From assembly GCF_024700885.2 (NCBI RefSeq), contig NZ_CP117016.1: a stretch of 64,000 bases of DNA. One strand, given 5' to 3'. This document shows, piece by piece, positions 1,556 to 21,249 of the stretch. Numbering within the stretch: the first letter of the stretch is position 1; each line of letters begins with the position of its first letter. The translations under genes and the position numbers were made by a program. The notes under the pieces were generated by a model. The model saw only the letters and a program-made list of their open reading frames with translations. It was not told the origin of the DNA and searched no databases. Origin of the DNA: Escherichia coli (lineage in GTDB: Bacteria > Pseudomonadota > Gammaproteobacteria > Enterobacterales > Enterobacteriaceae).

Positions 1556-1665
1556 TATTTACGACAAGCATAACCAATTGAGTGACAACATTTTTCCAAA
1601 ACTTAATTATTACCGTACCGTTTTATATACCGTCACCGAAAATCAGTACCATGAAAAATGCCATG

Positions 1666-2148
1666 CTATCTGGTCAAAGTGTCGTACTGTTTTTCGCAGA
1701 CTCTTCCGGCTTCGGCTGCCCGGTCAGCATACTCTGCCAGTTGTCTGTTTCTCTCGAGAGATTTGCTGAACACGTCGGCAAGCAAAACTCCGGTGTCTGC
1801 GGCTGACGACCCAGCGCCGACAATGGCGTTATACTGCCTGAGCTGCTCACGGATGGCAACGAGCTGTTGCTGCAACCGGCCAGCGCGAGCGGCAGCATCA
1901 AGAGCATCATTGCGCGCCTGGTCGATCCTCTGCTGAGCTTCACGTTCATTGGTCGCTTTCTCCTGTTCGTAGTGCTGACGAACTATCTCATCTTCAGCTT
2001 TGCGGTCTTCCTTCGCCTGCGCATACCCGGCGTCGTACTGACGACTGCCGTGTGCATTCCAGGCTACAACTCCTGATATGACCAGAACAGCAAGCATCGC
2101 CATGATAACCAACTGTTTCCAGTATGCTTTTGCGAATGCCAAGATCAT
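1666..2148 (-). CDS. Rz-like inner-membrane spanin (i-spanin)
   Basis: 160 aa with an N-terminal TM helix ([18 protein letters not shown]) followed by a long charged coiled coil. Last gene of the lysis cassette; start overlaps the endolysin stop. Confidence 0.75.
1674..1910 (-). CDS. Rz1-like outer-membrane lipoprotein spanin (o-spanin) embedded in the Rz frame
   Basis: Alternative frame inside 1666-2148. [14 protein letters not shown] lipobox followed by a Pro/Ser-rich mature part. Start chosen at the Met preceding the signal peptide. Confidence 0.55.
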   Translation of the reverse strand: MMLLMLPLALAGCSNSSLPSVSSSGSITPLSALGRQPQTPEFCLPTCSANLSRETDNWQSMLTGQPKPEESAKNSTTL

Positions 2149-2774
2149 ACCGCCAGCACCTTACTGGCAGTGATGTACCGCGCGCGCCGGTCGTCGATGC
2201 CGTTCCGGCCACCATTGATAATCAGAGTTACACGTGCAATATCGCCGGTATACTTCATGCATCCTTTGCTGGCGAAGAACCACGCCGCGCTACGAGCCGC
2301 ATATTCGTCCTGCGCCAGCAGTTCAGGGCTCTCCAGCAGGTCAACCTTCAGACCGTTTCCGCAATCACGATAGTTATTCAAACCGGTAATCTGGATAAGT
2401 CCGCGCCCTCGGTAATTCCAGCCATCACCAGGGGCATTGTTCCCCATGCGTTTGCTGTATACCAGATTTGCGATCGCGCGCTGGCGCTCAAGTGGCAATG
2501 GTGGTTCACCAGCACGGCGCCCCAGTGCATTAGCCTGTCCCTGGGTGAGGCGTCCAGTCCTGACAAAGCTCGCCAGTCCGGTAACGCTGTAGTTGAAATT
2601 CTCCTGCAACCTGGTGAAGCCACCAGACTCATGCCCGACTTGAGCAATAAACATTGCCTGATCTTCGGGCTTGCTGATACCAAACTCTTTCATCGCAGAA
2701 GTGATATGCGAGAACCAGCGTGCGGCCAGCGCCTCGCTGATACTAGCAGCTCGCTGGAATTGTTTAATCTCCAT
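2145..2774 (-). CDS. endolysin, glycoside hydrolase family 19 (chitinase-like) type
   Basis: Motifs QVGHESGGF and [15 protein letters not shown] are typical of GH19 phage lysozymes. Start moved to ATG 2774 (MEIKQFQ) because GAGG lies 7 nt upstream. Confidence 0.85.
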
Positions 2775-3072
2775 GTTTAGACCTCGATACTTTGAAAATT
2801 TGAACGACGTTACCGCGCGTTTTAATAACCGCAGCAAGCATGACAGCGTTGATAATGACCTCAGATAAATCAGCTACCATTGGCGTACGAAACCAGATTG
2901 CATAGGCGACGCGAACAGGAATACTTGCCGCAGCAACAATCAGGAAATAAGCAAGCCACCCACCCCATCTTCGGTGTTGGGAGCCGTTACGCCGGAATGT
3001 AACAACGCGAACTGCAATGCCAGTACAAATAACTGCATTGGTGATAAGCAAAAAAAGCTCATGAGTTACCAT
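2764..3072 (-). CDS. holin (three predicted TM helices)
   Basis: 102 aa, three hydrophobic segments and a charged C-terminus (KVSRSKHGD). Immediately upstream of the endolysin and overlapping it. Confidence 0.6.
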
Positions 3073-3463
3073 CGTCTTTTCTCCCCGGAATTAAGTCGCG
3101 TGGATTATCGGAGCGGTGATAGAGCCATATTCCAATACGCACTGCTACAATCGCTGACACGAATGCGCCAGCAGAGAAGACAACCCCTTTCTCGAAAGAA
3201 TCCTGCGTAATGGTGGGGATTAGACTGGCTATGCCTATAAGAATTGATGCTGTTGGTTTGTAAAAGAGAAGACCACAAAGAAAGCTGAGTATCGACAAGA
3301 GTACACGACGACGAACAGGATACTCTACAGCAGAGGTAACAAAAATTACCGAACCAGAGAGTGAACCCAATGCAACTTCAGGTGGAACACCAGCAAGTAC
3401 CGATACAAGCGAACACGCACTAAGATATTGATTTAAAGAAAAACTTGTAAATTGCAATGACAT
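3059..3463 (-). CDS. multi-pass membrane protein of the lysis cassette (holin/antiholin-like)
   Basis: Four hydrophobic segments; overlaps the holin start. The ORF-track start 3484 is TTG; ATG 3463 is preceded by GGTGA and was preferred. Confidence 0.45.
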   Translation of the reverse strand: MSLQFTSFSLNQYLSACSLVSVLAGVPPEVALGSLSGSVIFVTSAVEYPVRRRVLLSILSFLCGLLFYKPTASILIGIASLIPTITQDSFEKGVVFSAGAFVSAIVAVRIGIWLYHRSDNPRDLIPGRKDDGNS

Positions 3464-3643
3464 AAAAGTCACCATTTTTATCAATCAAACACAAATTCAA
3501 TTCATGAATTCACCGCCTCAATTAAACCATATTTGGTTTGCTCTTGCCTAGTGTCATTATTATTTATATAGTGACATACCAACTTTCAAATTATAATTTA
3601 TATATTTTAGGACCAAACCCAATACATTTTAAAAGGTGTAACA

Positions 3644-4768
3644 ATGGAATCTAATGCACTAAAAAAAGCACGACTATTTATAAATGACATAAAATATTGT
3701 GTTGAAAACTTTAATATCGATTCAACTTTATATACCGCTTTCAAGCCAAGTGATATTGGTGTTAAAGGAGATGAAAGCAATACAATATATGTTGCTGACG
3801 GTAAGCTTCCGGAAAAACTGATAATTGCTTTTGGAGAAAAGGCAAAAGACAGTAAAATATTTATTGGAAAAAATGTAAAATGCAGGGGATCGAGAATTGT
3901 AATAACTCACGGTGAAAGCCTTTGTTACATCGGAAATAACTCACAACTAAATAATGTAACTATGCATATATGGTGCAAATGGGATTTTGTAGTGGTTGGA
4001 GAAGGTGTATCAGTTACCTCAACAAGTAATTGGACTACTGGAATAAACCCTGGCAATCCTTGTAACGGCATTATTATTGGTGATCACTGCCTTATGAGCC
4101 AAGAAATATCTATTAGACCTGCAGATGGACACCAAATTATCGAACTCACCACGCGAAAAGTAGTCAACGCTGCAACATCACCTATTATAATCGAACCATA
4201 TTGCTGGATCGGACAGCGCACAGCAATACTAAAAAATGTAAGAATTGGTGCATGCTCCATCGTTTCACTTGGTGCTGTAGTTACAAAATCATGTAAAAAA
4301 TTCAGCGCGCTAAGTGGCGTACCAGCAAAAGCAAGATGCATTGAAGGAAAAATGTGGCTAAGAAACAATGGGGAAGAAGCCAAGAGAATAATGCTTATGT
4401 ATGAAAAAAGATTTGCAGGCACAGCAGCACAGCAGCACAGCAGCACAGCAGCACAGCAGCACAGCAGCACAGCAGCACAGCAGCACAGCAGCACAGCAGC
4501 ACAGCAGCACAGCAGCACAGCAGCACAGCAGCACAGCAGCACAGCAGCACAGCAGCACAGCAGCACAGCAGCACAGCAGCACAGCAGCACAGCAGCACAG
4601 CAGCACAGCAGCACAGCAGCACAGCAGCACAGCAGCACAGCAGCACAGCAGCACAGCAGCACAGCAGCACAGCAGCACAGCAGCACAGCAGCACAGCAGC
4701 ACAGCAGCACAGCAGCACAGCAGCACAGCAGCACAGCAGCACAGCAGCACAGCAGCACAGTGATATAA
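3644..4768 (+). CDS. hexapeptide-repeat (left-handed beta-helix) acetyltransferase with a C-terminal (AAQQHSST)x14 tail
   Basis: LbH signature runs (IIIGDHCLMSQEISI; IIIEPYCWIGQRTAILKNVRIGACSIVSLGAVV). AGGTG RBS. AT-rich, and 7 of 11 Arg codons are AGA. Opposite strand to all neighbours. Sits where, as I recall, related phages carry serotype-conversion genes. Confidence 0.8.
   Translation: MESNALKKARLFINDIKYCVENFNIDSTLYTAFKPSDIGVKGDESNTIYVADGKLPEKLIIAFGEKAKDSKIFIGKNVKCRGSRIVITHGESLCYIGNNSQLNNVTMHIWCKWDFVVVGEGVSVTSTSNWTTGINPGNPCNGIIIGDHCLMSQEISIRPADGHQIIELTTRKVVNAATSPIIIEPYCWIGQRTAILKNVRIGACSIVSLGAVVTKSCKKFSALSGVPAKARCIEGKMWLRNNGEEAKRIMLMYEKRFAGTAAQQHSSTAAQQHSSTAAQQHSSTAAQQHSSTAAQQHSSTAAQQHSSTAAQQHSSTAAQQHSSTAAQQHSSTAAQQHSSTAAQQHSSTAAQQHSSTAAQQHSSTAAQQHSSTVI
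4421..4760. repeat. perfect tandem repeat, ACAGCAGC x 42.5 (340 bp)
   Basis: Read directly: every 8-nt unit from 4421 to 4756 is identical, plus a partial acag at 4757-4760. Confidence 0.98.
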
Positions 4769-4776
4769 TTATAATA

Positions 4777-4797
4777 ATGGCCGTAATGCGCGGCCAT
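4777..4797. terminator. hairpin between the convergent acetyltransferase and tailspike genes
   Basis: ATGGCCG-taatgcg-CGGCCAT in an AT-rich context. No clean U-run on either side. Confidence 0.4.
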
Positions 4798-4818
4798 TAC
4801 ATATTATTCATTATAGCA

Positions 4819-7800
4819 TTAACTTATTAGATCCGCTATTTTCTTTTCTTGATATGCCATCCTTATTATTTCAAATTCATCCATACGCATCATGTAAATA
4901 GATCTTGTCAATACCAAATTTCCATGTTTATCTTCTTTAATTTCATCTGCACCTTCTATTAATTTAATAATCCCAAATTCATTAACTGGAATTGGACAAG
5001 ACTCAATATCAATAGGATAAAAATCACCAGATTCGTTTTCTCTTACCAAAACACTGGTTTCTTCATACGTAATAAGACCATACTTCTTCCAATCAAGACC
5101 AGCTTTTGTAATTGCATCCTTAACTTGCTGCGCTACAACTCCAAAATGATATCTGGCATGTTCACTTCCTTTTCGTAATATTTCATCCTTCATCTTCCAC
5201 ATTTGAAATTTTACACTACCCACGGCTTCAATAAGTTCAGTCGGTATATCCGAGAATTCATCTTTGTAATTAACATCTGAAACAACAGTGACAGCATTCT
5301 TGCTATATATGTTATTCCAGTATGCTGTCGTTGTACCATTATTAACTGTTCCTATCTGCCCTGTGGGAGCAAAATAAGGATTATCATTAACTGGATTAGC
5401 TATCTCGACAAGAACTTGAGTACCGCCAAAGCTCCCGCCAGGGAACATACGAAACCTGTTTGGTAAGCGATAGTCATTAGAACCATAAGCATTCCAGCCA
5501 GCCCCATTTTCTACAGTACCACGACACCTAAATTCAACAACTTCTTGTATCTGCGGTGTTACATCATATCCACCACGTATAGACCAGTACTTATTATTGT
5601 CAGATTCTCTGCGGGAATCATGAACACGAAAAGCACCATTACTAGCATACTGAATGGCTTTTTTATATTCTGAAGTATTTTCTGAATACCCCCCCAATAT
5701 CCAGTTCTCTCCTAATTTAAAGGAAACATCAAAAGCAGAACTTATAGAAGAAAGTGGTGAGTTATTAACACGAGTTGTCAAGGCGGAATTCAATGGTAGT
5801 TCATTAGCAACCCCACGCGATTGTGAAATAAGAAATATCTGTTTTCCTCGTTTCGAATACACTCCATCGCTGTACTTTTTATCATTCGAGTATTCCCCAC
5901 CACTAACTTTATTTGTTATCGCCCACATTCTAAATCCATCGGGATCATCCGGAGCAATACCAGAAGCAGTAGAAAAAGCGGAATAATTCTTTCCTTTGTA
6001 AGTTATAATAGATGCTCCAGAATCCCAATTATCCATAGTTAGAATAATAAGGTCTCCTTCATACATATCTATACCTTCAGGTTCAAATGAATGGGGGGTC
6101 CCATACTTTGGATTATCCATAAGATTTTTGTATCCATAAAGAGAACGAGCCCCCTCAAATGAAAATTCAGCAAGAATATTACCAGAATAATCAAACTTCT
6201 GAATAATATGCAACATGAACGGATGTGTATATCCCCTTAATATATAGATGTACTTACCATCACTGGCAACATCTTGAATAACATGAGTATCAGTTCCGCG
6301 CTGCGGATGTGGAATCCTGAAATAATACAATGGTCTTGCGTCCAAACTATTGTCAAGGGATTCTACGTGTATCCTGCTGTAAACAAATACATACCAGGCA
6401 TCATCATCTGCTGTGCTATCAGTTGCAACAAGAACAACATACCTTCCATCTGAAGATACACACGGGGTTGCTGAATTATAATTCTGATAAGGATGACCAG
6501 AACCAGAATATCCAAAAAGCTGATAAGTAATCACATCAGATTCAGATGTGCTGCTCCCTTTCCAAATTAATTTTGAATAACCTTTTCCTCCATCATTTCC
6601 TCGATATGTAGGCTGGGTAACCATTTGGGTATAAATAAAAAGGTCATCATCAATAACTATCGTAGATATTCCCTGATGGTTATTTAATATTGGTGCAGTG
6701 TAAGTAGTATTTTGCACTACTGAACCATCATCAGAAAACGAGTATTCAACCAGCCTGCGCTTCTCTAAAGCAGCTGCTGTTCCTGTACCAACCCCTGGAC
6801 CATTCGCCGTAAATCGTACACCAATATTATTTTCAGCAGCCCCTATAGTTGTAAAATCAGTTGAACCTATACTTACTATTTCATATTCAATTCCGGTTAT
6901 GAAGTCACCAGCTGATGTTACTTTAGAGTTGAAGTTTCCACTACCTTCAGCACTGCCAACAACCGTTTGTAAAATAAATAATTTTTTACCATTATAATTC
7001 GCATAAGCACACCCTTGACTTGTAGCCTCACCATTTGGAAAAACTTGGGACTCACCAAAACCCATAAATGCTTCCATTAAATGGCGTTGCACCAATGTAT
7101 TACTGATATTATTACGAAGAGAAAGTAGATGACCAGTTTTGGAAAGAATCATCCCTTCCCCTGTCATTTTGCTTACATCTACTTTCAACGTATCAACAAG
7201 ATATACTCCAGGTGGAACATAAGCATTTTCAGGAGCCAGAATAAAAGAATTCGTATCATCAGTTATACCATCTCCAACAGCAGCATAATCTTTCACACTT
7301 ACTGTATCACGCATCTTATCCTGGAACGTTCTGTATACAGCTCCAGCACCATACTGGATAAACCATCCGAAACCACCGACAACACCAGCAATTGCAGCAT
7401 CCACATACTTACGCATTGAACGATTATTTACAGCGTCCTGCTCAAGTGATGGATCTGCAAGGTTAGAAATTTTGTTTTGCTTTGCATCGTAATATTTTGC
7501 AAGCAGCGAGGGCTTCATCAATGCACGTCTGAACCACCCAAAACATCGCTGGATCAGCATCGTCAGGTAGTCGAATGCATCCTCATGAACTTCGGGGAAA
7601 AATTTTCCCTGATTGCGAAGATCAGTCTCCTGCACCACATCAAGCACACGCTCTATCGTAATTCGCCAGCCAGCAGCAAGCGGCGACGGAAGAACCACTT
7701 CACCGCCACTATAAGTGCCCGCTCCAGTTACCTTATAACCGGTATCAAGCACCAATTCTGTTACGTTCCCGTTCAGATCAGACACCTGAACAACCAGGTC

Positions 7801-7893
7801 GGATTTTTTGAAAATACGGAAGGTATACGGAAATGATGTCGTAACTCCGTTACCGGTGTATTCGTTGTGGTCAACTTCGGTTGAGACCGTCAT
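4819..7893 (-). CDS. tailspike / receptor-binding depolymerase with C-terminal intramolecular-chaperone (peptidase S74-like) domain
   Basis: 1024 aa. The N-terminus MTVSTEVDHNEYTGNGVTTSFPYTFRIFKKSDLVVQV matches the conserved particle-binding domain I recall for epsilon15/phiV10 tailspikes. The C-terminal 153 aa begin SDVNYKDEF, the S74 auto-cleavage pattern. Confidence 0.85.
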   Translation of the reverse strand: MTVSTEVDHNEYTGNGVTTSFPYTFRIFKKSDLVVQVSDLNGNVTELVLDTGYKVTGAGTYSGGEVVLPSPLAAGWRITIERVLDVVQETDLRNQGKFFPEVHEDAFDYLTMLIQRCFGWFRRALMKPSLLAKYYDAKQNKISNLADPSLEQDAVNNRSMRKYVDAAIAGVVGGFGWFIQYGAGAVYRTFQDKMRDTVSVKDYAAVGDGITDDTNSFILAPENAYVPPGVYLVDTLKVDVSKMTGEGMILSKTGHLLSLRNNISNTLVQRHLMEAFMGFGESQVFPNGEATSQGCAYANYNGKKLFILQTVVGSAEGSGNFNSKVTSAGDFITGIEYEIVSIGSTDFTTIGAAENNIGVRFTANGPGVGTGTAAALEKRRLVEYSFSDDGSVVQNTTYTAPILNNHQGISTIVIDDDLFIYTQMVTQPTYRGNDGGKGYSKLIWKGSSTSESDVITYQLFGYSGSGHPYQNYNSATPCVSSDGRYVVLVATDSTADDDAWYVFVYSRIHVESLDNSLDARPLYYFRIPHPQRGTDTHVIQDVASDGKYIYILRGYTHPFMLHIIQKFDYSGNILAEFSFEGARSLYGYKNLMDNPKYGTPHSFEPEGIDMYEGDLIILTMDNWDSGASIITYKGKNYSAFSTASGIAPDDPDGFRMWAITNKVSGGEYSNDKKYSDGVYSKRGKQIFLISQSRGVANELPLNSALTTRVNNSPLSSISSAFDVSFKLGENWILGGYSENTSEYKKAIQYASNGAFRVHDSRRESDNNKYWSIRGGYDVTPQIQEVVEFRCRGTVENGAGWNAYGSNDYRLPNRFRMFPGGSFGGTQVLVEIANPVNDNPYFAPTGQIGTVNNGTTTAYWNNIYSKNAVTVVSDVNYKDEFSDIPTELIEAVGSVKFQMWKMKDEILRKGSEHARYHFGVVAQQVKDAITKAGLDWKKYGLITYEETSVLVRENESGDFYPIDIESCPIPVNEFGIIKLIEGADEIKEDKHGNLVLTRSIYMMRMDEFEIIRMAYQEKKIADLIS

Positions 7894-7997
7894 GTTAAAT
7901 CTCCAGATAGTCGCAGCACCCGTTGCGCCGCATATCTGGTCATTCTATTACCTAAAAAACCACATATGGATAGACAACCCATAAATACGAACAGATA

Positions 7998-8012
7998 TTA
8001 CCTTTCAGGTAA
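7998..8012. promoter_or_regulatory. operator TTACCTTTCAGGTAA
   Basis: Perfect TTACC-N5-GGTAA palindrome. Overlaps a +strand TAGACA(7971)-N17-GATATT(7994) promoter-like pair. Confidence 0.55.
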
Positions 8013-8088
8013 TTCGCAAAACGTGCTGGATAGCAAACAAATTATTTGGTACTGTATAAATATACAGTTATTGCATGGAGAAGATAAG

Positions 8089-8346
8089 ATGCAGCAGTAT
8101 CACTATCCACTGGAAGACGGATTTACCGAAAGGATTCACACGCCGGGAGGCGTCAGGTCACTGGTGGATGGATCGCACTTGATGAAATTACTCCGGGATC
8201 TCGATAAGGATGGATTTAATGTCGATGGCCCACTTGCCGAACTGACTGCACTGATTAACTACGTCACCAGCTCACAGATGTCTATGCAGGATCTGCAAAC
8301 ACATCTCGACTATTGTGCCGAACAATTACGAAAACAAACTACATAA
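8089..8346 (+). CDS. hypothetical protein (opposite-strand moron, 85 aa)
   Basis: ATG 8089 is preceded by GGAGAAG. The ORF-track start 7966 lies inside the regulatory region and was rejected. No recognisable motifs. Confidence 0.5.
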   Translation: MQQYHYPLEDGFTERIHTPGGVRSLVDGSHLMKLLRDLDKDGFNVDGPLAELTALINYVTSSQMSMQDLQTHLDYCAEQLRKQTT

Positions 8347-8351
8347 AGAAA

Positions 8352-8369
8352 AGGCCGCGAAAGCGGCCT
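8352..8369 (-). terminator. rho-independent terminator ending the ejection-protein operon
   Basis: AGGCCGC-gaaa-GCGGCCT, followed on the minus strand by TTTTCTTT. Confidence 0.6.
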
Positions 8370-8377
8370 GTGACATG

Positions 8378-8674
8378 TCACGTTCCTTTTCTGAATGATA
8401 GCCATTCGAAAAATGATGACATTCCACCGCAGACAATAGCAAAGATGATCCCACCAAAGAAGAGAAGGCCAGCCTGCCACCACTCCCACCGCCATACATC
8501 CACAGCGCCAACCATACCAACAATCGCTCCAACAAATGGAATATAGCTCACGATGAAAGCGATGGGGGCTGCAATTATCCAGTGCAATCCCCACCATGAT
8601 TCAAGCCCAGCCATAATTGCTGCCAACTGAAAAAGACCAACGACGATATAAACAATGAATCCTATAGCTTGCAT
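8378..8674 (-). CDS. small integral membrane protein (3 TM, Trp-rich)
   Basis: 98 aa, almost entirely hydrophobic. AGGTGA RBS. Last gene of the leftward virion operon. Confidence 0.6.
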   Translation of the reverse strand: MQAIGFIVYIVVGLFQLAAIMAGLESWWGLHWIIAAPIAFIVSYIPFVGAIVGMVGAVDVWRWEWWQAGLLFFGGIIFAIVCGGMSSFFEWLSFRKGT

Positions 8675-8686
8675 GTAGTCACCTAT

Positions 8687-8860
8687 TTACCCAGTAAAAA
8701 TAAGAGGCCTCCCCTCAATAAGGCTTGCAACAAGAACTACTCCCTGCACAACAAAGATGAACCAGCAAATAGCTTGAGTCTGAGGGTTAAGAAAATATTT
8801 GTAGCGGTCAATAAATAACAATCCACCAGAAATTATCACACTCAAAATAATTAAAAACAC
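8687..8860 (-). CDS. small membrane protein (57 aa, GTG start), not in the ORF track
   Basis: Hand translation: (M)FLIILSVIISGGLLFIDRYKYFLNPQTQAICWFIFVVQGVVLVASLIEGRPLIFTG. AAGGAAG lies 4 nt upstream of the GTG. It fills the gap between two genes. Confidence 0.4.
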   Translation of the reverse strand: MFLIILSVIISGGLLFIDRYKYFLNPQTQAICWFIFVVQGVVLVASLIEGRPLIFTG

Positions 8861-8869
8861 AACACTTCC

Positions 8870-11344
8870 TTATTGCGGAGTGACATCCTGAGGTCGCCAC
8901 CAGTATGTCTGGTTAAACTCTTTCTTCGAACGTTGCTCCATTTTACGCAAATAGCCTGGTGAAAAATACTCCTGCATCTGGTTAAAGATCATGTGATCGA
9001 GAGCCGCCTTCAAGTACCAGAGATTCGCACCAGGCATCAAACCTTTCCCCAGCTTCACCAGATCACCACCAGTCTGCTCACTCTTCCCTTCCACAGCATT
9101 TAACGGTATGCCCTGAGCAATCTTCACTACGTCATCAACCAGACCAGCTACCGGGCCAAGCATCGACGCCAGCGCGCCGCTTCCGTACCTAGTGTGATCT
9201 GACAATAAAAAGTCACCGTACAGGCCAAGACCACCACCTTTCAGTAGAGCACCAAGCCAGAATTTTGCGGCATCTTCTCCTGTCATCTCTCGAGGATTAC
9301 GACCAGACGCAAGGTCGTTAAGTTGCTGCGACAAAGCGCCAAGAATGGTCGTACTGGCAATAAACGTCGCAATATATGCCGCACGCCCACCAGCAGACGG
9401 CATACCCATAGCGCGTGACCAGTGACGCATAACAACCGAGATAGGGAACGATTTAAACAGGAAAACACTTCTCGTTAATTCACCTTTCCATGTTCCACGC
9501 TGAATACCAGAACCGGTTATCAGTTGCTCACGTGCTCCCGGTGTAATAACAGCCATATCAACTTCTTCAGTTACGGCACCGAGCAGTTTACGCATTGCCT
9601 CAAATTTCACGCGTTCAGGCTCACCAAGATGTTTAACTGCTGAATCAGGGATACGCATAATGCTTTCCGGCGTCAGCATCGTATTATTACCGTTCCCCCA
9701 GTCCTCCTGTTGCGCCAACTTCCATACGCTCCAGTCTGTGTCAGTAATCCCTTTGCTTTTCAGGATACGAAAATCAGAGTCATCAAGGCTACGAAGGTCT
9801 GGTGTCCGTGACACTACTTCTCCCAGGCTTCCCATCATGGTTACGCCATAGGCGCGCTTGTGCGCATCTGACCATGCTGTAAGCCCACTGGCACGCATTA
9901 CCGCCGTTGCCGCCCAACGAGACACTGACGGCCCCATATTATCCATCGCCCAGCGGTTAACGCTGCCAAGTAGAGATTCCATCGCCAGACCAGCGCGGCG
10001 CGCCCGCACAAGTTCTGTACGGTTCGTTGGGTCCATAGCTTCAAGCTGGTTGCGGAATAACTGGTTCATTGGAAGGTTGGTAACCTTCGCAGACAGATAC
10101 ATGGTTCCAAGATCAGAGAACGATGACAGCAACGCGGATCCGAGCCTGCTGGCAACCAGCCAGTTGCGGATATTGTCAGACCATCGCGCGATGTGCGGAT
10201 TCGCTACAGGCTGTGTCTTTCCGGAAATAAAGTTGTACAGATTCTCTGTGTTGTTCGCCAGCCGCTCGACTTTACCGGTTTTACTCGGGTTAGCTGTTGC
10301 CGTTTCTGCCTTAACCTGATCAAGAAGGGAGCGGAAAACATGATCGGGGTTTGGACCATATGTTTCCACCAGAGCAATATCTTTACTGATACCTTCCAGG
10401 TGACCGACCATGATTTCCCATAGAGAGCGATCGCCATAAAGTTGTTGATATTGGAGATAGGAATCTGCATCTTTGAAATGTATCTGTCGTGATGCATTAC
10501 CACGGTTAGCACGTGCGCCGGAAATTCGCATTCCGGTATCAGTAAGCTTATTCAGCCCACCAGTAGCGATCGTGTTATAAGCCTCTCCAAGAAATGCAGA
10601 CAACTCGGCATCGTTCATCAGTTGTCCATCGGCTCTGGTATAATATTTGCGATCCAGCTTACCTATAACATCGCTAACCCACTTATCCTTTGATACCGCC
10701 CCAACCTTTTCCATAGAATGATGTTGAGGGATCCCCCAGTTTTCGAGATAGCCAATGTCCCCACCAGCATCATTAAACCGGCGGCGCAGCAGCTCTGCAA
10801 CTTCTCTCCACGCTTTAGCACCTTTTCTTGCTTTAGCATTGCCAGTATTTTGCCCCCGCATTTCATATACCAGGTCACGTACGCCCGCTTCATCTTCAAA
10901 CAGGCCAAAAAAGCGAGGATCAACTGCTTCAAATGCCTCCTGCAATTGACTCAATGCATAATCACGAGTGGCTTTTGTTCTGGATTCAACAGAGAGGAAA
11001 TTCGATTTACCGTCTGCATTAAAAGCAATAGTACGGTTAAGAGCGCCAAGTTTCCCATCAGCCCCTTGATAGCTATTGATAAATTTATCCAATCTCTGAC
11101 GTGCGGCTATAGTGAGAGCCACACGACGTTTCTTTAATGCCGCTTCTCGCTGTAATTCTTCAGATGCCAATTGTGCTGCACGATACAACCGTTCTGATTC
11201 GGAAAGTTGTCGCCACGACATCGGGTCATCACGAGCAATGGAGCGCATATTTCGATAAATGCGGTCTTCAATGTTCTGTATTTCTCGCGCCGTTAACGTG
11301 CGCTGCGCCGCCTGCTGGACCGCTTGTATACATTCCTGTCTCAT
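8870..11344 (-). CDS. large internal virion (ejection) protein
   Basis: 824 aa. Position and size fit the third of three large proteins downstream of the tail-tube genes in this phage group. Hydrophobic Gly/Ala-rich C-terminal segments. Confidence 0.6.
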   Translation of the reverse strand: MRQECIQAVQQAAQRTLTAREIQNIEDRIYRNMRSIARDDPMSWRQLSESERLYRAAQLASEELQREAALKKRRVALTIAARQRLDKFINSYQGADGKLGALNRTIAFNADGKSNFLSVESRTKATRDYALSQLQEAFEAVDPRFFGLFEDEAGVRDLVYEMRGQNTGNAKARKGAKAWREVAELLRRRFNDAGGDIGYLENWGIPQHHSMEKVGAVSKDKWVSDVIGKLDRKYYTRADGQLMNDAELSAFLGEAYNTIATGGLNKLTDTGMRISGARANRGNASRQIHFKDADSYLQYQQLYGDRSLWEIMVGHLEGISKDIALVETYGPNPDHVFRSLLDQVKAETATANPSKTGKVERLANNTENLYNFISGKTQPVANPHIARWSDNIRNWLVASRLGSALLSSFSDLGTMYLSAKVTNLPMNQLFRNQLEAMDPTNRTELVRARRAGLAMESLLGSVNRWAMDNMGPSVSRWAATAVMRASGLTAWSDAHKRAYGVTMMGSLGEVVSRTPDLRSLDDSDFRILKSKGITDTDWSVWKLAQQEDWGNGNNTMLTPESIMRIPDSAVKHLGEPERVKFEAMRKLLGAVTEEVDMAVITPGAREQLITGSGIQRGTWKGELTRSVFLFKSFPISVVMRHWSRAMGMPSAGGRAAYIATFIASTTILGALSQQLNDLASGRNPREMTGEDAAKFWLGALLKGGGLGLYGDFLLSDHTRYGSGALASMLGPVAGLVDDVVKIAQGIPLNAVEGKSEQTGGDLVKLGKGLMPGANLWYLKAALDHMIFNQMQEYFSPGYLRKMEQRSKKEFNQTYWWRPQDVTPQ

Positions 11345-11349
11345 TTAAT

Positions 11350-13152
11350 TTAACCTCTCAAGAAACACGCCACAGCAACATCAAACAGGCTGGAATCCTG
11401 TATTGCCTGCTCACTTTCCCTGTTCGCTTCATCCAGTACTTCTCGCGCGCTGCGCGATTGTGGATTACCATCATCATCCAGCACGGTGATTATCATGTCA
11501 GGTGATTCAAGCAGCGAGTCTTCAGCTATGCGAAGATCAATACCTCCCGCCTGATCCGCCATCATTTTTTGTTCTGCCTGTTGCAATATTTTACCAGGCT
11601 CAAAAGGAGCTACTTCGTCTGGCGTCCTGACCTCTGCTGTTTTATAGAATGAAACAGCCTGAGCATTAAGTTCACTTTCTGCCTGCTGTCTCCGAGCCAG
11701 TTCTGCTCGAGCTTCAAAAAACTGACCGCCAGGCTCGTGCGGTGCCAACGCGTTACGGGAAAATTCCAGGCGTTCTTGTGCCTGCCGGATTCGTTGATCA
11801 ATATCGCGAAGTCTGGCCTGTTTATCTGATCGAGCACGAGACAAAGCTTTACCGCTACCGGTTGGCTCTTCTGCAAGAATTTGTGCCCGCTGTTCAGTGA
11901 GATTTTCAATAATTCGTTGGCTATTAGCGATTTCAGACTGGTAAACCTGTCTATCGCCACGCGGCAAAAGCTGCGCGGCCTGTTCTTCAAGCAACCGATT
12001 TTCTATAGCGCGCGCCGTTACTCCATCATCTACAGATGACAGAGCCTCATTAACTGCCTGAGACAGCAGACTCTTGCGCCCAGGAATTTCACTGAAAGAT
12101 GCAGACTCAACAATGCTGGCAACGTCTACAGGTCTCCCCTGGCTAACATCAGACATAGCTTTTCGCAGAGCCTGAATGTGAGAATTGCGCGAAAGCACGT
12201 TGATCGGCACGCCGGGCGCAATATCAATTTCAGCATGATGAGCGGCATTCGCCGCCAGTGCAGCATCGATATCAACTGGTGAAAAATTTGGTGCGTTTGT
12301 AGACTCGCCGCGAGAGTTAATAAATCTGCCGACACCACCAAACGCCACCCCAAGAACAGCATCAATAGCAATTGACTGTCGATCCAACACATCATACTGG
12401 TTAGCCATTTCGCTATAGCCACCATCACGAAGCGTTTTTGCAGTAAGCCCACGCTGTGCCATACCGAACGCAATATTTGTACCTGCGGCATAGGCAATAT
12501 CTGGCGTTGCACGTACTGCTGTTGCTGCGGCGCGTCGCACTGAACTCTCACCCGTCCGCGCAAGCTGAGCCGCCACACCTTCCGCCAGCGCACCACCAGC
12601 ACGTAACCCGAGGCTCATAGGGATCAGTGTTCCGACACCAGCAGTAATGCCCTGCACTAATCCCGCTTCCTGCGCCGTCCTGAAATCAACACCCTGTGCT
12701 GTCAGCCGTTCAAACTCAGAAAAACCCTGTAGCGAAGTTACCGCCGCTGCACCTCCGACAGGACCACCGAGCGTTGTACCGACAACAGCCTGCCCGCCCA
12801 TATCGAACAACCCATAAAGAACCTGCCCGGCGGTTCCGGTTGTCGCGGCATCAGGCGTCAGCCGCTTAACCTGCTGCTCTGCTAGTTTTCTCTGCTCGGC
12901 AATGTATGAAACTGAAGTGTCATTGAGCGAGGTGTTTTCGTTAACAAACTGAGCAATCGGGGATACGATTTTATCCATCCCTGCCCAGAGCAACTGATCT
13001 GGCTTTGCCACCAGCCCGGAGTACAAACCAGACAATGCCGCTCCTACAGCATTGTCGAAAAAACCAACATCGCTGTTAAAGCCAGCTGGATTTGATGCTG
13101 CTTCGTCAAGCTGCTGATTCTGGTTTACTGGATTAAGGCCAAAGTAACTCAT
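11350..13152 (-). CDS. internal virion (ejection) protein, Gly/Ala-rich
   Basis: 600 aa. N-terminal half has TM-like Gly/Ala stretches; C-terminal half is a charged coiled coil. Confidence 0.6.
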
Positions 13153-15956
13153 TGCGGAATATCTCCGGAGAATCTCTGACGCTTCTGTGTCAGATTAAGA
13201 ACAACGGGAGAACCATCATCTTTCAGCAGATAACCAGTACCAAGTTTCACCAGGTACTGACTATCGCCGTAACTTTGCAAACCATACTGACCAGGCGGTG
13301 TTTTTATCCCGGAGCCGACAACTTGTTCATTCCAAGCCTGATTAACCTGCTTATCGAATTGCTCTGCAGACATTCCCCACGGCAAAAGGACATTCCCCAT
13401 TCCGTTATAGTCATGCACGCCACCTGTAGCTACGTTAACAGCCTGTTTCCAGATATCATTGTCAATTTCGCCTGATACCACGCCTTTTTTCGCCATCACA
13501 CCAGCGTAATAATCCTTTGCGATCTCGTATGCCATTGATGCCCCCTGAGCGTCACCAGCAAATGCATCCTTCACCATGTCAGAAAACTCAAGGCGAAGAT
13601 CAGCATCTTTAGGCATCGGAATACCTTTCGCATCATCAGTACCTTTACGAGCCGCCGCGCCAGCAAGAATTGTCTGCGCAGCGGTTTCAGGAGACACGGA
13701 AACATCCGGATTAAACCAGTTTTTTTCTGCCAAAATACCACCAGGCTTATCCATCAGTATCCCGGCAACGGCAGCAGATGGAGCGTTGGCACTGATCTGC
13801 TGTAGTGCTGACATATACACCTGCCCACCACCAGTGCTCTGCCTGATGGTATCGAGATATGCTGCCTGTTGGGAAACTGGAGCATCACGAAAGAAAACAC
13901 CGATCTGATTGGCCTCGTCTTTGGAAAAGAACGTCAGTGGAGTGCCATATGACTTAGCAAGGTCACTGACCTGAGCGGCACGCAAGGCAACGCTCTGTCC
14001 AAAGTTATCCTTATTGCTCATGTCGATAGGCTTTGCCTGTCCGGAGGCAAGAGAGAACTGCACAGGATCCGACTGCCGCTGCTTTATCACCTGATTTGCA
14101 GCCGAAACAACGTTGTCATAAAGAGCTGCTCGTGCCGCATAGCCCTCCCCTGTATCACCAGTATCCGGGCGTAATTGCTCAACATATGCTGTAATGCTGC
14201 TTGTCGGCATGTTGCGGAAAGAGCCTATATACTGTCCAGCGATCTGCGTATTCTTAAACTCGGTATATCGCAGGTTTCCTTCTCTGACTCCATAAGCTGC
14301 AATAAAATCATCCTCACCAGGTGGGTTAGGAAATTCAACGCCACGCATATATGCAGCTGTCGCATCGCGAACCTGGCTGTCAATCATCGTTTTATATTCA
14401 GCCTGCTGCTGCCGACGCAGTTGATCCGCCTGTCGCATAAAACTTGCCTGCGCCTCAGGAGATGCCGCATCGAATGCTGCATTACCGGTATAGCGTTTGG
14501 TGTTGGTTGGAATTGTTGATAAACCAAGTGCTGCACTGACACCAGCAGTTAACTGCTGATCACTGTATGGCTGGCTACCGTTCTCATGATGGATAATGGC
14601 TGCACAAAGCGCCTTCAGGGTATCAGGATTTGATGCATCGAGAGGCTCATCAGCAGAAACGCCAAGTTGTTCGCACACTGCTTTGATATATGACATAGTG
14701 TCATTTTTATCAGTAGGCGGTGCCCAGCGATTAATTATCTCGCTGACTGTATCAATACCCTGCCGCTGATACGACATCAGGTTCCGCCCTAATGCACGAA
14801 TCCCGTGTTCAGGTGTTTCGAATTTAGCAAATCGACCATCATCACCGGTCTGGCCTACCCACGGATTAGTTTTGCTGTATTCGAGATTTCCTGGGTTGTT
14901 ATTACGGATACCGCGAGCACCACCTTTTACGTAATACTGATCCTGCTGTTCGTGAAGTTTCTCAGCATAGGCGGTCGCATTCTCAGGGTTATCGAATATT
15001 CCAAGGTGTTTTCCAGTTTTTTCATACAGAGCAATAGCTTCGTCATCGGAAAGCAATTTTCCATCATCACTGACGGTGGGAATGAGAACTTCTCCAGCTT
15101 CCGTGCCTATAGAAATTGTTCGAACGGTACTGATAGTCCCATCTTCATTTTTGACAGATGGGCGGTTGAAGAGATTAATATTTCCTTGAACAACCATTCC
15201 CTTTGTGGACTTTGGCTCTCCACCATAAGGATTAACAATAGCCCGCTTTGATCCAGCAGCAGTATCGCTTAGCTCGCCATTACTTTGGATAAATGAGATC
15301 GCATTGTTTGCCGACCACTGGGACAATGCTGCATCAGCAACCTTCTCTTTAAACTCGATTTTCTTGGCCTGTATTTGCTCGTCGCTCCAGCCATGTGCAG
15401 CACCGTACTCCTCAATTTGCTGGAAAGTTTGCTTATTAGCCAATATGTATGCGGCATTGTCGCCATACAATGCTGCGGCATTTTTACCATTGTTCAGCAG
15501 CGTCGCCTGAAACTGACCTTCTTCGTAGGCATTAATTTGCCCTATCTCGTGCCGCCCGGCCTGCGTAGTGAACTGAATGCGCTGCTGCTGTGCCTGCTGC
15601 ATGAAAGCATTACGAGTCTGTTCATCCGGCAGCGACATAGCCAGTTGTTCGACCTGAGCATCAAACTGCTGCGTATACTCCTGACCTTTTCCAATAGCAT
15701 TTTTCCCTTTCAGGTTAAGCAATCCTGTTTCAGTATTATTCAGCAGATCACTGCTTATCTGACTGAGGTTAAGAGATGCCTCCTGAGCCAGAGCGATATT
15801 GGCACGCTGTTTTGCCTGCCCCAAAACATCAATTGCCTCTGTCCCTGCCCGAACAAAAGCATCACTAATACCTGGCTGAGAAAACGTCTGCAAGCCTGCT
15901 GACTGAACTCCACGACTCTCAACCTGACGTCCGGATACTGTTGGTACGACTGGCAT
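13149..15956 (-). CDS. large internal virion protein with conserved central RNNNPGN domain (possible cell-wall-degrading function)
   Basis: Start set at ATG 15956 (MPVVPTVSG), overlapping the upstream stop as TAATG. Central motif [12 protein letters not shown]...GIRALGRNL...WAP. The enzymatic assignment is unverified. Confidence 0.6.
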
Positions 15957-16501
15957 TATAATCCTCCGGGTAATCTGGTTCCTGCTGCTGCCCCGATTGG
16001 CGCAGGGGTGCTTTGAGTAAACGGACTCCACGTCCCACCAAACATCTGGTACGCACCGTATGCCTTCAGAGGCGCAGTGAGCAATGTTGTTGCTGCTCCC
16101 ACATTCCCCTGTTTACGGGCTGAACTGGCTTCTGCTTTATAGTTGGCAGCCTGAACCTGATAACCGTAAGCCTCGCGTTGCGCGTTATTCACCGTCGTCA
16201 GCGAATCAAGAGCGCCAAACTGGGCAGTGTCGCCAAATATATCCAGCGCGTTACCGGTAGATAAATCGGCGCCGGTCGCCCCCATTGTCGCCGCCTGTGT
16301 ACCAAGCCGCTGTCGGGTCTCTCTGCGCCGTTGCTCAGCTTCAGCGTTACCTCTGTTTATTGCATCATTTGCCTGAGCTGTGGCTATATCTGCGTTCGCT
16401 TCTGCAACCTTCGAGGCATACTTTCCCTGTTGGTACTGGGTGTATGCCTGAATGCCACTCATGGCGAGCATTGCGCCACCAGCAATAACCGGATCGCACA
16501 T
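15956..16501 (-). CDS. virion internal protein (Ala/Gly/Gln-rich)
   Basis: 181 aa; translationally coupled on both sides within the tail/ejection operon. Confidence 0.5.
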
Positions 16502-20041: not shown

Positions 20042-20370
20042 TACTCACCCCCATTGCCGTACAGGGTTTCAGCCGCTGATTTTTCTACATCCCCGGAAAC
20101 AGGAGCGATCGCCATATCAGTGATCTGCAGATCGGCACTGCGATTAACACCATCGTCAGTTTCTCTGGCAGACAGGCCTCGAATAACAGCCTTTGCAGTT
20201 ATCATCACTTCTGTTCCGACGCCCTGAGGTTGCGCCTTCAGCTTATTCAATGTGTCGTTATTAAGAGTGATGCACAGCCCCCACGGGTATTCATCGCGAG
20301 TTCTGGTTTCTCCGCTCTCATCCTGGTAGCTGTCAGTGCCGGTTTTGAGGTTTACGAGTTCCATATACAC
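20041..20370 (-). CDS. hypothetical head/tail-joining protein
   Basis: 109-aa ORF in the structural operon. Confidence 0.45.
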   Translation of the reverse strand: MYMELVNLKTGTDSYQDESGETRTRDEYPWGLCITLNNDTLNKLKAQPQGVGTEVMITAKAVIRGLSARETDDGVNRSADLQITDMAIAPVSGDVEKSAAETLYGNGGE

Positions 20371-20414
20371 TCCTGCAATAAAGGGGCCGAAGCCCCTTGT
20401 CTGATCCGCGAGGC

Positions 20415-20759: not shown

Positions 20760-20760
20760 C

Positions 20761-21198: not shown

Positions 21199-21249
21199 CT
21201 TCTTTCTCCATTAGTGGGTCTGTTACGACCCACAGGTTAATAACAGGCG

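What the first reader, a model, noticed from the sequence alone, without database searches (positions are those of the whole stretch)
4421..4760. Mismatch-free 42.5-copy octanucleotide tract (ACAGCAGC) forms the 3' end of a prophage LbH acetyltransferase gene
Bases 4421-4760 are 340 bp of ACAGCAGC without a single deviation. Because 8 is not a multiple of 3, three units make one 24-bp period, giving the enzyme a C-terminal tail of about 14 AAQQHSST repeats. A tract this long and this perfect is what ongoing slipped-strand mispairing maintains, so it looks like a hypermutable contingency locus. The only close precedent I know is neuO of the K1 prophage CUS-3. That gene is also a hexapeptide-family O-acetyltransferase carried next to a tailspike, but its VNTR is heptameric and 5'-terminal, and it switches the gene on/off and tunes activity. 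Here the tract is octameric and 3'-terminal, so it cannot act as a simple on/off switch. I am not aware of this arrangement having been described.
Basis: partly seen in the sequence, partly recalled or inferred. Interest (0 to 1): 0.85.

Follow-up and report, generated by a model that had tools for sequence, protein, structure and literature searches.

The report
Variable repeat tail on prophage capsule acetyltransferase
A perfect, strain-variable 8-base repeat forms the 3' end of a NeuO-like acetyltransferase gene on an E. coli prophage; the enzyme is a strong candidate for the so far unidentified gene that turns the K22 capsule into its acetylated form, K18.

Summary
Window 4419-4760 is a flawless 342-bp period-8 tract (42.75 copies). 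It ends a 374-aa left-handed beta-helix (LbH) acetyltransferase gene that lies convergent with the tailspike of a phiV10/epsilon15-like prophage.

The tract is a real, fast-evolving repeat locus (VNTR). Six independent complete genomes carry 16.75 to 52.75 perfect copies. The window differs from strain MLI114 by exactly one unit and nothing else in 64 kb. All three exit frames occur in nature. The commonest allele is a short interrupted proto-repeat.

Because 8 is not a multiple of 3 and the tract is open in every frame, slippage never truncates the catalytic domain. It changes only the tail length and which of three C-termini is used. So the tract cannot be a classical on/off switch. Whether it tunes activity, as NeuO's repeat domain does, is inferred and not shown.

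The enzyme's closest solved relative is NeuO itself, and the catalytic His and Trp are conserved. Homologues sit inside ribitol-phosphate capsule loci. All 10 E. coli genomes with the gene are among the 18 of 5426 that carry the K18_K22 capsule locus. A 2026 paper states that the acetyltransferase for this locus must lie elsewhere in the genome.

Verdict: a new variant of a known kind, and worth experiments.

The parts
3544..3572 (+). Sigma-70-like promoter candidate (TTGCCT-17-TATAGT) in the 28% GC intergenic region upstream of the acetyltransferase gene. An AAGGTG Shine-Dalgarno sequence lies about 7 nt before the ATG.
   Evidence: Consensus scan, (weak evidence: 9 of 12 matches). Sequence. 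GC content.
3644..4768 (+). NeuO-like LbH (hexapeptide-repeat) O-acetyltransferase gene, 374 aa in this allele. It is a low-GC (36.5%) cargo gene sitting in the lysogenic-conversion slot.
   Evidence: ORF. Pfam and NCBIfam matches. PDB phmmer best hit NeuO 3jqy, E=2.7e-18. AF2 model with an LbH core at pLDDT above 90. Foldseek top hits NeuO and OatWY. RefSeq annotation 'acyltransferase'.
3644..4420 (+). Conserved catalytic domain (residues 1-259, ending ...YEKRFAG). H163 and W188 align with the NeuO catalytic residues His147 and Trp171 and are invariant in 43 family members.
   Evidence: Alignment to NeuO. Invariant columns. Residue roles from PMC3046976. Homologues are 255-292 aa long and end just after RFA.
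4419..4760 (+). Perfect octanucleotide repeat tract (VNTR), unit ACAGCAGC (TRF consensus, same repeat in another register: GCACAGCA), 42.75 copies. It is open in all six frames and encodes [AAQQHSST]x14, a tail predicted to be disordered.
   Evidence: Tail residues 291-374 have pLDDT below 50. Length polymorphism.
4761..4768 (+). Post-tract exit in this allele: ...ACA GTG ATA TAA gives -TVI*. The other two registers give -Q* (CAG TGA) or a 23-aa hydrophobic extension, SDIIIIMAVMRGHYILFIIALTY*, that reads through the terminator.
   Evidence: Sequence. Natural alleles in all three registers.
4775..4799 (.). GC-rich hairpin (TAATGGCCG-TAATG-CGCGGCCATTA) between the convergent acetyltransferase and tailspike genes. 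It is probably a bidirectional intrinsic terminator.
   Evidence: Terminator scan. Conserved in all related loci (right flanks).
4819..7893 (-). Tailspike, 1024 aa. The N-terminus is of the epsilon15/phiV10 type. The central region is distantly related to the Bacillus phage GA1 gp12 neck appendage.
   Evidence: ORF. Annotation. tblastn. phiV10 synteny.
1666..3463 (-). Lysis cassette at the prophage end next to host yfgI: Rz-like DUF2514 protein (1666-2148), GH19 endolysin (2145-2774), holin (2764-3072), putative holin (3059-3463).
   Evidence: ORFs. RefSeq annotation of the identical MLI114 locus. Same gene order as phiV10.
1600..40400 (.). Whole phiV10/epsilon15-like (Uetakevirus) prophage of about 39 kb, integrated between yfgI and guaA. 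The integrase lies at window 39114-40364. Boundaries are approximate.
   Evidence: Megablast to phiV10 and relatives, 97.7-97.9% identity over the structural genes. MLI114 annotation. Coordinate mapping.

Best explanation
The tract is a slipped-strand repeat locus (VNTR) at the 3' end of a prophage-borne, NeuO-like cytoplasmic O-acetyltransferase.

Shown:
- The tract gains and loses 8-bp units far faster than the flanks accumulate substitutions.
- It stays perfect.
- It is open in all frames and encodes the same cyclic octapeptide in each frame. Every slippage event therefore leaves the catalytic domain intact.
- Slippage changes only (a) the length of a disordered AAQQHSST tail and (b) which of three C-termini follows the tail: -Q, -TVI, or a hydrophobic read-through extension of about 23 aa.

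Inferred:
- The enzyme O-acetylates the host's ribosyl-ribitol-phosphate group 2 capsule, converting K22 to K18. This would be lysogenic conversion and superinfection protection, as with phiV10 Oac and CUS-3 NeuO.
- The variable tail leaves the enzyme at the C-terminal segment that, in NeuO, forms part of the acceptor-binding platform. I infer that it acts as a rheostat or a three-way modifier of activity, stability or localisation, and not as an on/off switch. This would be the C-terminal counterpart of NeuO's N-terminal poly-psi domain.
For: Hypermutability:
- Six independent complete genomes carry 16.75, 22.9, 42.75/43.75, 50.75 and 52.75 perfect copies.
- AST205 and the window share a tailspike flank that is 100% identical over 3.2 kb, yet carry 134 and 342 bp.
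- The window (protein WCP90562.1, locus tag NL415) and MLI114 (NL414) are identical over 64 kb except for one octamer. MLI114 and MLI121 came from two patients and differ by 14 of 2520 cgMLST alleles (PMC10198576).
- Protein-cluster alleles with 0-5 peptide repeats occur in all three exit registers.
- The interrupted proto-repeat allele is invariant in five laboratory-derived lines and is the commonest allele.

Frame neutrality.

Enzyme identity:
- NeuO is the best PDB hit by sequence (E=2.7e-18) and by fold.
- His163 and Trp188 are invariant.

Substrate:
- Homologues at 50-71% identity lie inside KpsMT/KpsCS/KpsD capsule loci that have TagF-like polymerases. One of these loci (P0002) also holds a CDP-ribitol synthase.
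- The host carries a kps locus whose region 2 lacks any acetyltransferase.
- That region 2 is the K18_K22 type. Its protein identities to the K100-type class are 97.09, 98.91 and 81.93%. The published K18_K22-versus-K100 values are 97.098, 98.908 and 82.13%. The other class contains strains typed 'K100?'.
- All 10 of 10 gene-positive genomes fall within the 18 of 5426 K18_K22 genomes, and none falls within the 113 K100 genomes.
- PMC13171606 states that K18 is acetylated K22, that the loci are identical, and that the acetyltransferase is probably outside the locus.

Slot: phiV10 oac (O-antigen acetylation, superinfection immunity) sits at the same position, convergent with the tailspike.

Tail:
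- The AF2 model gives pLDDT below 50 for residues 291-374.
- In NeuO, activity rises linearly with repeat number (PMC3046976).
Against: - No functional data exist. The tail may be irrelevant to activity.
- Homologues manage with short, non-repetitive tails.
- The most common E. coli allele has no expanded tract, so expansion is not required.
- Exit registers show no clear bias in the few long alleles available (3 Q*, 1 TVI*, 1 hydrophobic, 1 long read-through). This is also what neutrality predicts.
- The AAQQHSST unit lacks the two basic residues proposed to let NeuO's heptad bind a polyanion.
- The link between the capsule type and the gene is confounded by shared ancestry. At least four chromosomal backgrounds are present, judged by pdeF alleles, but I did not build a phylogeny.
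- The K18 and K22 reference genomes could not be examined.
- The one-unit difference between the window and MLI114 could be an assembly or polishing error in one of the two assemblies.
Confidence: 0.55

Rival explanations
1. Neutral, tolerated microsatellite. A chance proto-repeat (ACAGCAG-ACAGCAGC-ACAGC) in a dispensable, naturally variable C-terminal tail became perfect and now expands and contracts by slippage. It has no effect on enzyme function or fitness. The tract is hypermutable but is not a contingency locus.
For: - Family members have short, unconserved tails after RFA, so this region tolerates change.
- The commonest allele is the unexpanded proto-repeat.
- All three exit registers occur, and one includes a 60-aa antisense read-through into the tailspike gene. 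This suggests weak constraint.
- About 68% of random octamers are open in all frames (my own calculation), so frame-openness is not evidence of design.
Against: - Three of five independent long-read strains hold more than 40 copies, and all tracts are perfect.
- Tracts this long are otherwise absent: the longest tract of this octamer in 185,579 species genomes is 114 bp.
- From general knowledge, long bacterial repeat tracts tend to contract unless selected.
- The one well-studied relative, NeuO, carries a repeat locus whose length tunes activity. Independent repeat loci in two prophage capsule acetyltransferases would be a notable coincidence.
Confidence: 0.3
2. Three-state phase switch acting through the C-terminus. 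One or two of the exit registers (the hydrophobic SDIIIIMAVMRGHYILFIIALTY tail, or the long read-through in strains with the PAR-type flank) destabilise, aggregate or mislocalise the enzyme. One-unit slippage would then toggle acetylation on and off despite the 3' location.
For: - Each one-unit change shifts the register (8 mod 3 = 2).
- The three termini differ sharply in length and hydrophobicity.
- The window and MLI114, otherwise identical, sit in different registers, TVI* and Q*.
Against: - Alleles in the hydrophobic and long read-through registers persist in natural isolates (SW070919, PAR, P0076, P0080-82).
- The hydrophobic sequence is simply the translation of the AT-rich terminator region.
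- There are no expression data.
Confidence: 0.1
3. The tract works at the DNA or RNA level and not through the protein. It might act as a spacer or insulator between the convergent acetyltransferase and tailspike transcripts, as a structured element, or as a recombination hotspot.
For: The tract sits 15 bp upstream of the shared terminator hairpin, between convergent genes.
Against: - Single-strand folding of either strand is no better than shuffled controls (z = -0.33 and -0.09).
- The tract lies inside the ORF in every allele.
- The stop codon and the terminator keep the same spacing whatever the tract length.
Confidence: 0.03
4. Assembly or sequencing artefact.
For: Long perfect repeats are hard to size exactly. 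An IMG/VR copy of the gene has an odd interruption (CACTGTGATAAGCACAG) that looks like a mis-join. Many database proteins are truncated at contig ends inside the tract.
Against: The tract is present at the same site in six independently sequenced complete genomes from Mali, Japan, Gambia, China and Ecuador.
Confidence: 0.02

Closest known systems
[quoted passage not shown]
   Same: - Homologous LbH enzyme: best PDB hit, E=2.7e-18, with catalytic His and Trp conserved.
- Prophage cargo gene next to the tailspike (for CUS-3).
- Acts, or is predicted to act, on a group 2 capsule whose own locus lacks an acetyltransferase.
- Carries a perfect repeat tract whose unit length is not a multiple of 3, so three units encode one peptide repeat.
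- Copy number is highly polymorphic: 2-93 for neuO, and about 3 to 52.75 here.
   Different: - The unit is 8 nt (ACAGCAGC, giving AAQQHSST), not 7 nt (AAGACTC, giving RLKTQDS).
- The tract is at the 3' end, not 2 nt after the start codon.
- So two thirds of neuO alleles are off, whereas here no allele truncates the enzyme.
- The host phage is phiV10/epsilon15-like, not P22-like.
- The predicted substrate is a ribitol-phosphate capsule, not polysialic acid.
- The peptide unit has one His and no Arg or Lys.
- The repeat tracts are unrelated in sequence, so they arose independently.
phiV10 Oac (O157 O-antigen O-acetyltransferase, superinfection immunity)
   Same: Same phage type (97.7% nucleotide identity over the structural genes). 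Same genomic slot: convergent with the tailspike and just before the holin/endolysin/Rz cassette. Same predicted biological role, modification of the receptor polysaccharide.
   Different: phiV10 Oac is a non-homologous 338-aa protein. From memory it is an integral-membrane acyltransferase-3 enzyme; I did not check this here. It has no repeat tract.
Classical simple-sequence contingency loci (for example the tetranucleotide tracts of Haemophilus, or the homopolymer and pentamer tracts of Neisseria)
   Same: A perfect tandem repeat in a surface-modification gene. Copy number varies between close relatives, which fits slipped-strand mispairing.
   Different: Those tracts lie in promoters or in the 5' part of coding regions and switch expression on and off or set its level. 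This tract is 3'-terminal and frame-neutral for the catalytic domain.
In-locus homologues in capsule gene clusters (Aeromonas caviae P0009, Pantoea anthophila P0018, P0002)
   Same: Same protein family (51-71% identity, full length). They are associated with KpsMT, KpsCS and TagF-like polymerase genes.
   Different: They are chromosomal genes within capsule region 2, not on a prophage. They are 265-275 aa long with short non-repetitive tails.

Membership tests
Left-handed beta-helix (hexapeptide-repeat) acyltransferase superfamily | [quoted passage not shown] | tested here: met
   Pfam Hexapep, E=8e-4, below the gathering score. NCBIfam C-terminal matches to NeuD, WcaF, WbbJ and Maa. AF2 model with short beta-strands over residues 60-232 at pLDDT mostly above 90. 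All Foldseek top hits are LbH enzymes.
NeuO/OatWY-type capsule polysaccharide O-acetyltransferases | Sequence and structural homology to NeuO or OatWY | tested here: met
   phmmer against PDB: 3jqy (NeuO) E=2.7e-18 over residues 66-242; 2wlc (OatWY) E=7.7e-6. Foldseek ranks 1-8 are NeuO and OatWY. tblastn to CUS-3 neuO: 35.8% identity over residues 149-229.
NeuO/OatWY-type capsule polysaccharide O-acetyltransferases | Catalytic His (NeuO His147) and active-site Trp (NeuO Trp171) conserved | tested here: met
   The alignment places query H163 on NeuO H147 and query W188 on NeuO W171. Both are invariant in 43 homologues. Residue roles are from PMC3046976.
NeuO/OatWY-type capsule polysaccharide O-acetyltransferases | Acetyl-CoA-dependent O-acetylation of a capsule polymer | not testable with these tools
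   Only association evidence is available: homologues lie inside capsule loci, and the gene co-occurs exclusively with the K18_K22 kps locus.
NeuO poly-psi repeat locus | Heptanucleotide AAGACTC tract in the 5' coding region; full-length translation only when the copy number is a multiple of 3 | tested here: not met
   The unit is the octamer ACAGCAGC at the 3' end. The catalytic domain is upstream of the tract and complete in every register. So the tract works like a poly-psi tract in generating peptide repeats, but it is not a member of that family.
Simple-sequence contingency locus (phase variation by slipped-strand mispairing) | Perfect tandem repeat whose copy number differs between closely related strains | tested here: met
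   Six lengths in six strains, all perfect. A one-unit difference between two isolates that are otherwise identical over 64 kb. Further alleles in the protein cluster.
Simple-sequence contingency locus (phase variation by slipped-strand mispairing) | High-frequency reversible length change within a clonal culture | not testable with these tools
   No read-level data are available. The five EC0026B laboratory lines carry only the short interrupted allele, which is not expected to slip.
Simple-sequence contingency locus (phase variation by slipped-strand mispairing) | A change in repeat number switches gene expression on or off, or alters its level | tested here: inconclusive
   On/off switching by truncation is excluded by the sequence logic. 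An effect acting through tail length or the C-terminus remains possible but untested.
K18 capsule O-acetylation determinant (the gene that distinguishes K18 from K22) | Present and intact in K18 strains; absent or inactive in K22 strains that have an identical kps locus | not tested
   The reference genomes GCA_977946865 (K18a), GCA_977946875 (K18ab) and GCA_977947955 (K22) are not in the searchable collections. Indirect support: the gene occurs only in genomes with the K18_K22 locus, in 10 of 18 of them.
Uetakevirus (phiV10/epsilon15-like) prophage lysogenic-conversion module | Cargo gene between the tailspike and the lysis cassette, convergent with the tailspike, in a phiV10-like genome | tested here: met
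   97.7-97.9% nucleotide identity to phiV10 and relatives. Identical gene order, with oac replaced by the LbH gene.

The most novel reading that the evidence does not exclude
A frame-neutral 3'-terminal repeat locus would be a new type of contingency locus. It would never switch the gene off. Instead it would stochastically set the length and the terminus of a disordered tail on a prophage acetyltransferase. This would grade the O-acetylation of the K18/K22 ribitol-phosphate capsule. It could underlie the unexplained K22 / K18a / K18ab serological series, and it would have evolved independently of the 5' heptamer tract in the homologous NeuO.
Probability: 0.3. Interest if true: 0.85.

Novelty: new variant of a known kind. 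Interest (0 to 1): 0.72.

Why it matters
1. It would be the second case, after neuO, of a prophage capsule O-acetyltransferase carrying a long coding repeat tract. It arose independently, with a different unit, at the opposite end of the gene and in a different phage family. This would suggest that selection repeatedly favours stochastic tuning of capsule acetylation.

2. The 3' frame-neutral design separates hypermutability from on/off switching. That makes it a clean system for asking whether repeat-encoded disordered tails can act as activity rheostats.

3. It gives a concrete, testable candidate for an open question stated in 2026 (PMC13171606): which gene outside the kps locus acetylates K22 to give K18. 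It could therefore allow genomic typing tools to separate K18 from K22.

4. The locus is a ready-made high-resolution strain-typing marker for this lineage.

Tried and rejected
- **Metagenome scan** for the 47-nt left flank: 0 hits, so no extra alleles came from that source.
- **The look-up of encoding contigs** for the window's exact protein: not on record.
- **Literature search** for the repeat sequence on either strand: 0 papers. The search for 'octanucleotide repeat' with acetyltransferase and prophage found nothing relevant.
- **Hairpin or non-B DNA idea:** folding 80 nt of either strand as DNA gives -7.3 and -13.2 kcal/mol, no better than shuffles. Rejected as a special structure.
- **The same octamer elsewhere:** 34 genome loci and 4 viral loci hold 4 or more copies, but only one viral contig (L015) carries this gene. 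The Aeromonas caviae tract (L023) is unrelated to the A. caviae homologue of the enzyme.
- **L015's interrupted tract** (132 + 111 bp): I judged it a probable mis-assembly and did not use it.
- **Finding the host capsule locus by coordinate walking:** this took four annotation calls (54, 56, 57, 59), and two of them landed in the aai type VI secretion and pic islands.
- **Isolated phages:** none in the 50,697-record phage collection carries this gene. The best matches are neuO and unrelated LbH genes at 36% coverage or less.
- **O-antigen as the substrate:** considered, but not favoured, because all three homologues whose genomic context I examined sit in transporter-dependent capsule loci. 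It is not excluded.
Full report
**1. Observation**

Window 4419-4760 is a 342-bp tract with period 8. TRF reports 42.8 copies, 100% matches, no indels and a score of 684. Direct reading shows no deviation.

The tract is the 3' end of ORF 3644-4768(+), 374 aa. Its tail reads RFAGT-[AAQQHSST]x14-VI*. Because 8 is congruent to 2 mod 3, all three forward frames read the same eight codons in rotation. The tract is open in all six frames.

Among the representative genomes of 185,579 species, only 34 loci have four or more exact copies of this octamer. The longest of those tracts is 114 bp, and none lies in a relative of this gene.

**2. Genomic setting**

- The window is identical over 64 kb to E. 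coli MLI114 (NZ_CP117013.1) except for one 8-bp unit inside the tract.
- The gene lies in a 39-kb prophage between guaA (integrase side) and yfgI (lysis side).
- The prophage is 97.7-97.9% identical over its structural genes to phiV10 and related Uetakevirus phages.
- The gene is convergent with the 1024-aa tailspike. A GC-rich hairpin at 4775-4799 separates the two genes.
- The holin, GH19 endolysin and Rz cassette flanks the gene on its other (upstream) side.
- In phiV10 the same slot holds oac, a non-homologous O-acetyltransferase annotated as acetylating the host O-antigen and giving superinfection immunity.
- The gene body is 36.5% GC and its upstream region 28.3%, against 49.8% for the window. 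This is typical of phage cargo genes.

**3. The enzyme**

Pfam gives only a sub-threshold Hexapep match. NCBIfam gives C-terminal matches to NeuD, WcaF, WbbJ and Maa.

Against all PDB sequences, the best hit is NeuO of CUS-3 itself (3jqy, E=2.7e-18, residues 66-242). The meningococcal capsule O-acetyltransferase OatWY ranks fourth, at E=7.7e-6.

An AlphaFold model built from 43 homologues has an LbH core with pLDDT mostly above 90, C-terminal helices at 244-272, and a tail below pLDDT 50 from residue 291. Foldseek ranks 1-8 are NeuO and OatWY.

Query H163 and W188 align with NeuO His147 and Trp171, which the NeuO structure paper identifies as active-site residues. Both are invariant across the family.

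**4. Is the tract hypermutable?**

Only 10 of 5426 complete E. coli genomes carry the gene, always at the same site. The alleles in complete genomes are:

| Strain | Tract (bp) | Copies | Protein tail after RFAGT |
|---|---|---|---|
| AST205 | 134 | 16.75 | [AAQQHSST]x5-AAQ* |
| PAR | 183 | 22.9 | [AAQQHSST]x7, then a long read-through |
| window | 342 | 42.75 | [AAQQHSST]x14-VI* |
| MLI114 | 350 | 43.75 | [AAQQHSST]x14-AAQ* |
| SW070919 | 406 | 50.75 | [AAQQHSST]x16, then AAQQH + SDIIIIMAVMRGHYILFIIALTY* |
| E100341 | 422 | 52.75 | [AAQQHSST]x17-AAQ* |
| EC0026B (five laboratory-derived lines) | about 23, interrupted (GCACAGCAG-ACAGCAGCACAGC) | about 2.9 | ADSSTAK* |

All the expanded tracts are perfect.

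- AST205 and the window share a 3.2-kb right flank at 100% identity, yet differ by 26 units.
- The window's protein is WCP90562.1 (locus tag NL415_007840, on a 5,255,484-bp replicon). MLI114's locus tags begin NL414.
- The source study reports that MLI114 and MLI121, from two different soldiers, differ by 14 of 2520 cgMLST alleles.
- The window therefore probably comes from MLI121. This is my inference from the adjacent locus-tag prefix. If so, the one-unit difference arose on an epidemiological time scale. An assembly error of one unit cannot be excluded.
- The 125-member protein cluster adds alleles with 0-5 peptide repeats in all three exit registers. It also shows that the commonest allele (71 contigs) is the interrupted proto-repeat RFADTADSSTAK*.

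Together these results give an origin (a proto-repeat made perfect by a 1-nt change, then expanded) and show rapid gain and loss of units. Heterogeneity within a culture could not be tested.

**5. What slippage does**

Every register leaves residues 1-259 intact. Homologues from other bacteria are 255-292 aa long and end a few variable residues after the conserved ...RFA motif.

Slippage changes the number of AAQQHSST units and selects one of three endings: -Q*, -TVI*, or a hydrophobic extension of about 23 aa read through the terminator. In strains with the alternative right flank, the endings are -AK*, a read-through of about 60 aa, or a hydrophobic tail.

The alignment to NeuO ends at query residue 242, which matches NeuO residue 224. 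[quoted passage not shown] By inference, the repeat tail starts from the part of the enzyme that faces the polysaccharide acceptor.

[quoted passage not shown] A comparable rheostat role here is plausible but unproven. The unit has one His and no Arg or Lys.

**6. Likely substrate and an open question it touches**

Homologues at 50-71% identity sit inside transporter-dependent capsule loci (KpsM/T, KpsC/S, KpsD) that contain TagF-like glycerol/ribitol-phosphotransferases. In one of these loci (P0002) there is also an IspD-SDR CDP-ribitol synthase and a 383-aa protein of unknown function.

MLI114 has a group 2 kps locus whose region 2 consists of exactly such a trio and contains no acetyltransferase.

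That region 2 occurs at 99% identity or more in only 18 of 5426 genomes. All 10 gene-positive genomes are among these 18. A sister class at 88% identity (113 genomes) has none.

The region 2 proteins compare as follows:

| Region 2 protein | Identity between the two classes | Published K18_K22 vs K100 |
|---|---|---|
| hypothetical, 378 aa | 97.09% | 97.098% |
| CDP-ribitol synthase (cytidylyltransferase/SDR), 457 aa | 98.91% | 98.908% |
| TagF-like polymerase, 1107 aa | 81.93% | 82.13% |

The 113-genome class contains Ecol_448 and Ecol_745, which are typed 'K100?'. So the host locus is K18_K22.

The 2026 typing paper states that K18 is the O-acetylated form of K22, that their kps loci are 100% identical, and that the acetyltransferase is probably located outside the locus. 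This prophage gene is a specific candidate for it.

One further result fits a teichoic-acid-like receptor. The tailspike's central region is 24.5% identical over 86% of its length to the gp12 neck appendage of Bacillus phage GA1. I recall from the literature that the phi29-family appendage degrades wall teichoic acid; I did not check this here.

Caveats:
- The association is partly confounded by shared ancestry. At least four chromosomal backgrounds are present, judged by pdeF alleles.
- The K18 and K22 reference genomes are not in the searchable collections.

**7. Verdict**

- **Shown:** a perfect, population-variable, frame-neutral 3' repeat tract in a NeuO-homologous prophage acetyltransferase.
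- **Inferred:** O-acetylation of the K18/K22 capsule, and a tuning role for the tail.
- **Main rival:** a neutral, tolerated microsatellite.

No prior description was found. I classify it as a new variant of a known kind: a NeuO-type repeat locus with a different unit, position and logic, and an independent origin.

Noticed in passing
window 33493-33631: Three adjacent short tandem arrays (periods 12, 24 and 18; for example ATCCCGTTTTTGGGATCATTCAAC x2.6). They lie inside the prophage gene annotated as 'DnaT-like ssDNA-binding domain-containing protein', just upstream of 'replication protein P'. They look like origin iterons inside a lambda-O-like initiator gene.
   Followed up: partly
window 25570-25646 (+): A tRNA-Arg (anticodon TCT, reading AGA) lies within the prophage, between the terminase and portal genes. 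It may compensate for rare AGA codons in low-GC phage cargo genes.
   Followed up: partly
MLI114 chromosome 817980-823930 (locus L060 9981-15931): The host capsule locus is of the K18_K22 type. It is found in only 18 of 5426 complete E. coli genomes, and 8 of those 18 lack the acetyltransferase prophage gene. On the hypothesis proposed here, those 8 would be K22 and the 10 with the gene would be K18.
   Followed up: partly
L002 (AST205) 10285-10767; L010 (SW070919) 9942-11791: The prophage is decaying in some strains. In AST205 the tailspike directly abuts a truncated replication protein P gene, so most of the structural genes are deleted. In SW070919 an IS3 element splits a head-binding protein gene. 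The acetyltransferase with its long tract is kept in both.
   Followed up: no
L004 (PAR), L005-L009 (EC0026B), L010 (SW070919): tailspike genes: Three different tailspike types (1024, 923 and 825 aa) accompany an acetyltransferase that is 99.5-100% identical between strains. The receptor-binding protein has therefore been exchanged while the conversion gene stayed the same. I did not examine whether all three types target the same capsule.
   Followed up: no
L015 1909-1917 (IMGVR_UViG_2585427789_000028): This copy of the gene has its tract split into 132 and 111 bp by CACTGTGATAAGCACAG, which resembles the normal right flank. It is either a mis-assembly or a real duplication of the tract end.
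   Followed up: no
MLI114 chromosome 860000-935000 (loci L057-L059): The host strain carries enteroaggregative E. coli markers (the aaiC type VI secretion island and the pic autotransporter) and a large chromosomal resistance island (class 1 integron with dfrA5 and sul1, mer, tetA, TEM-1), adjacent to the kps locus.
   Followed up: no
L051 4420-6423 (contig JAHZTU010024022.1): The closest non-E. coli homologue (P0002, 71% identity) sits at the end of a ribitol-phosphate capsule region 2 and is immediately followed by an IS transposase gene. This may be a snapshot of how the gene became mobile before a phage captured it.
   Followed up: no
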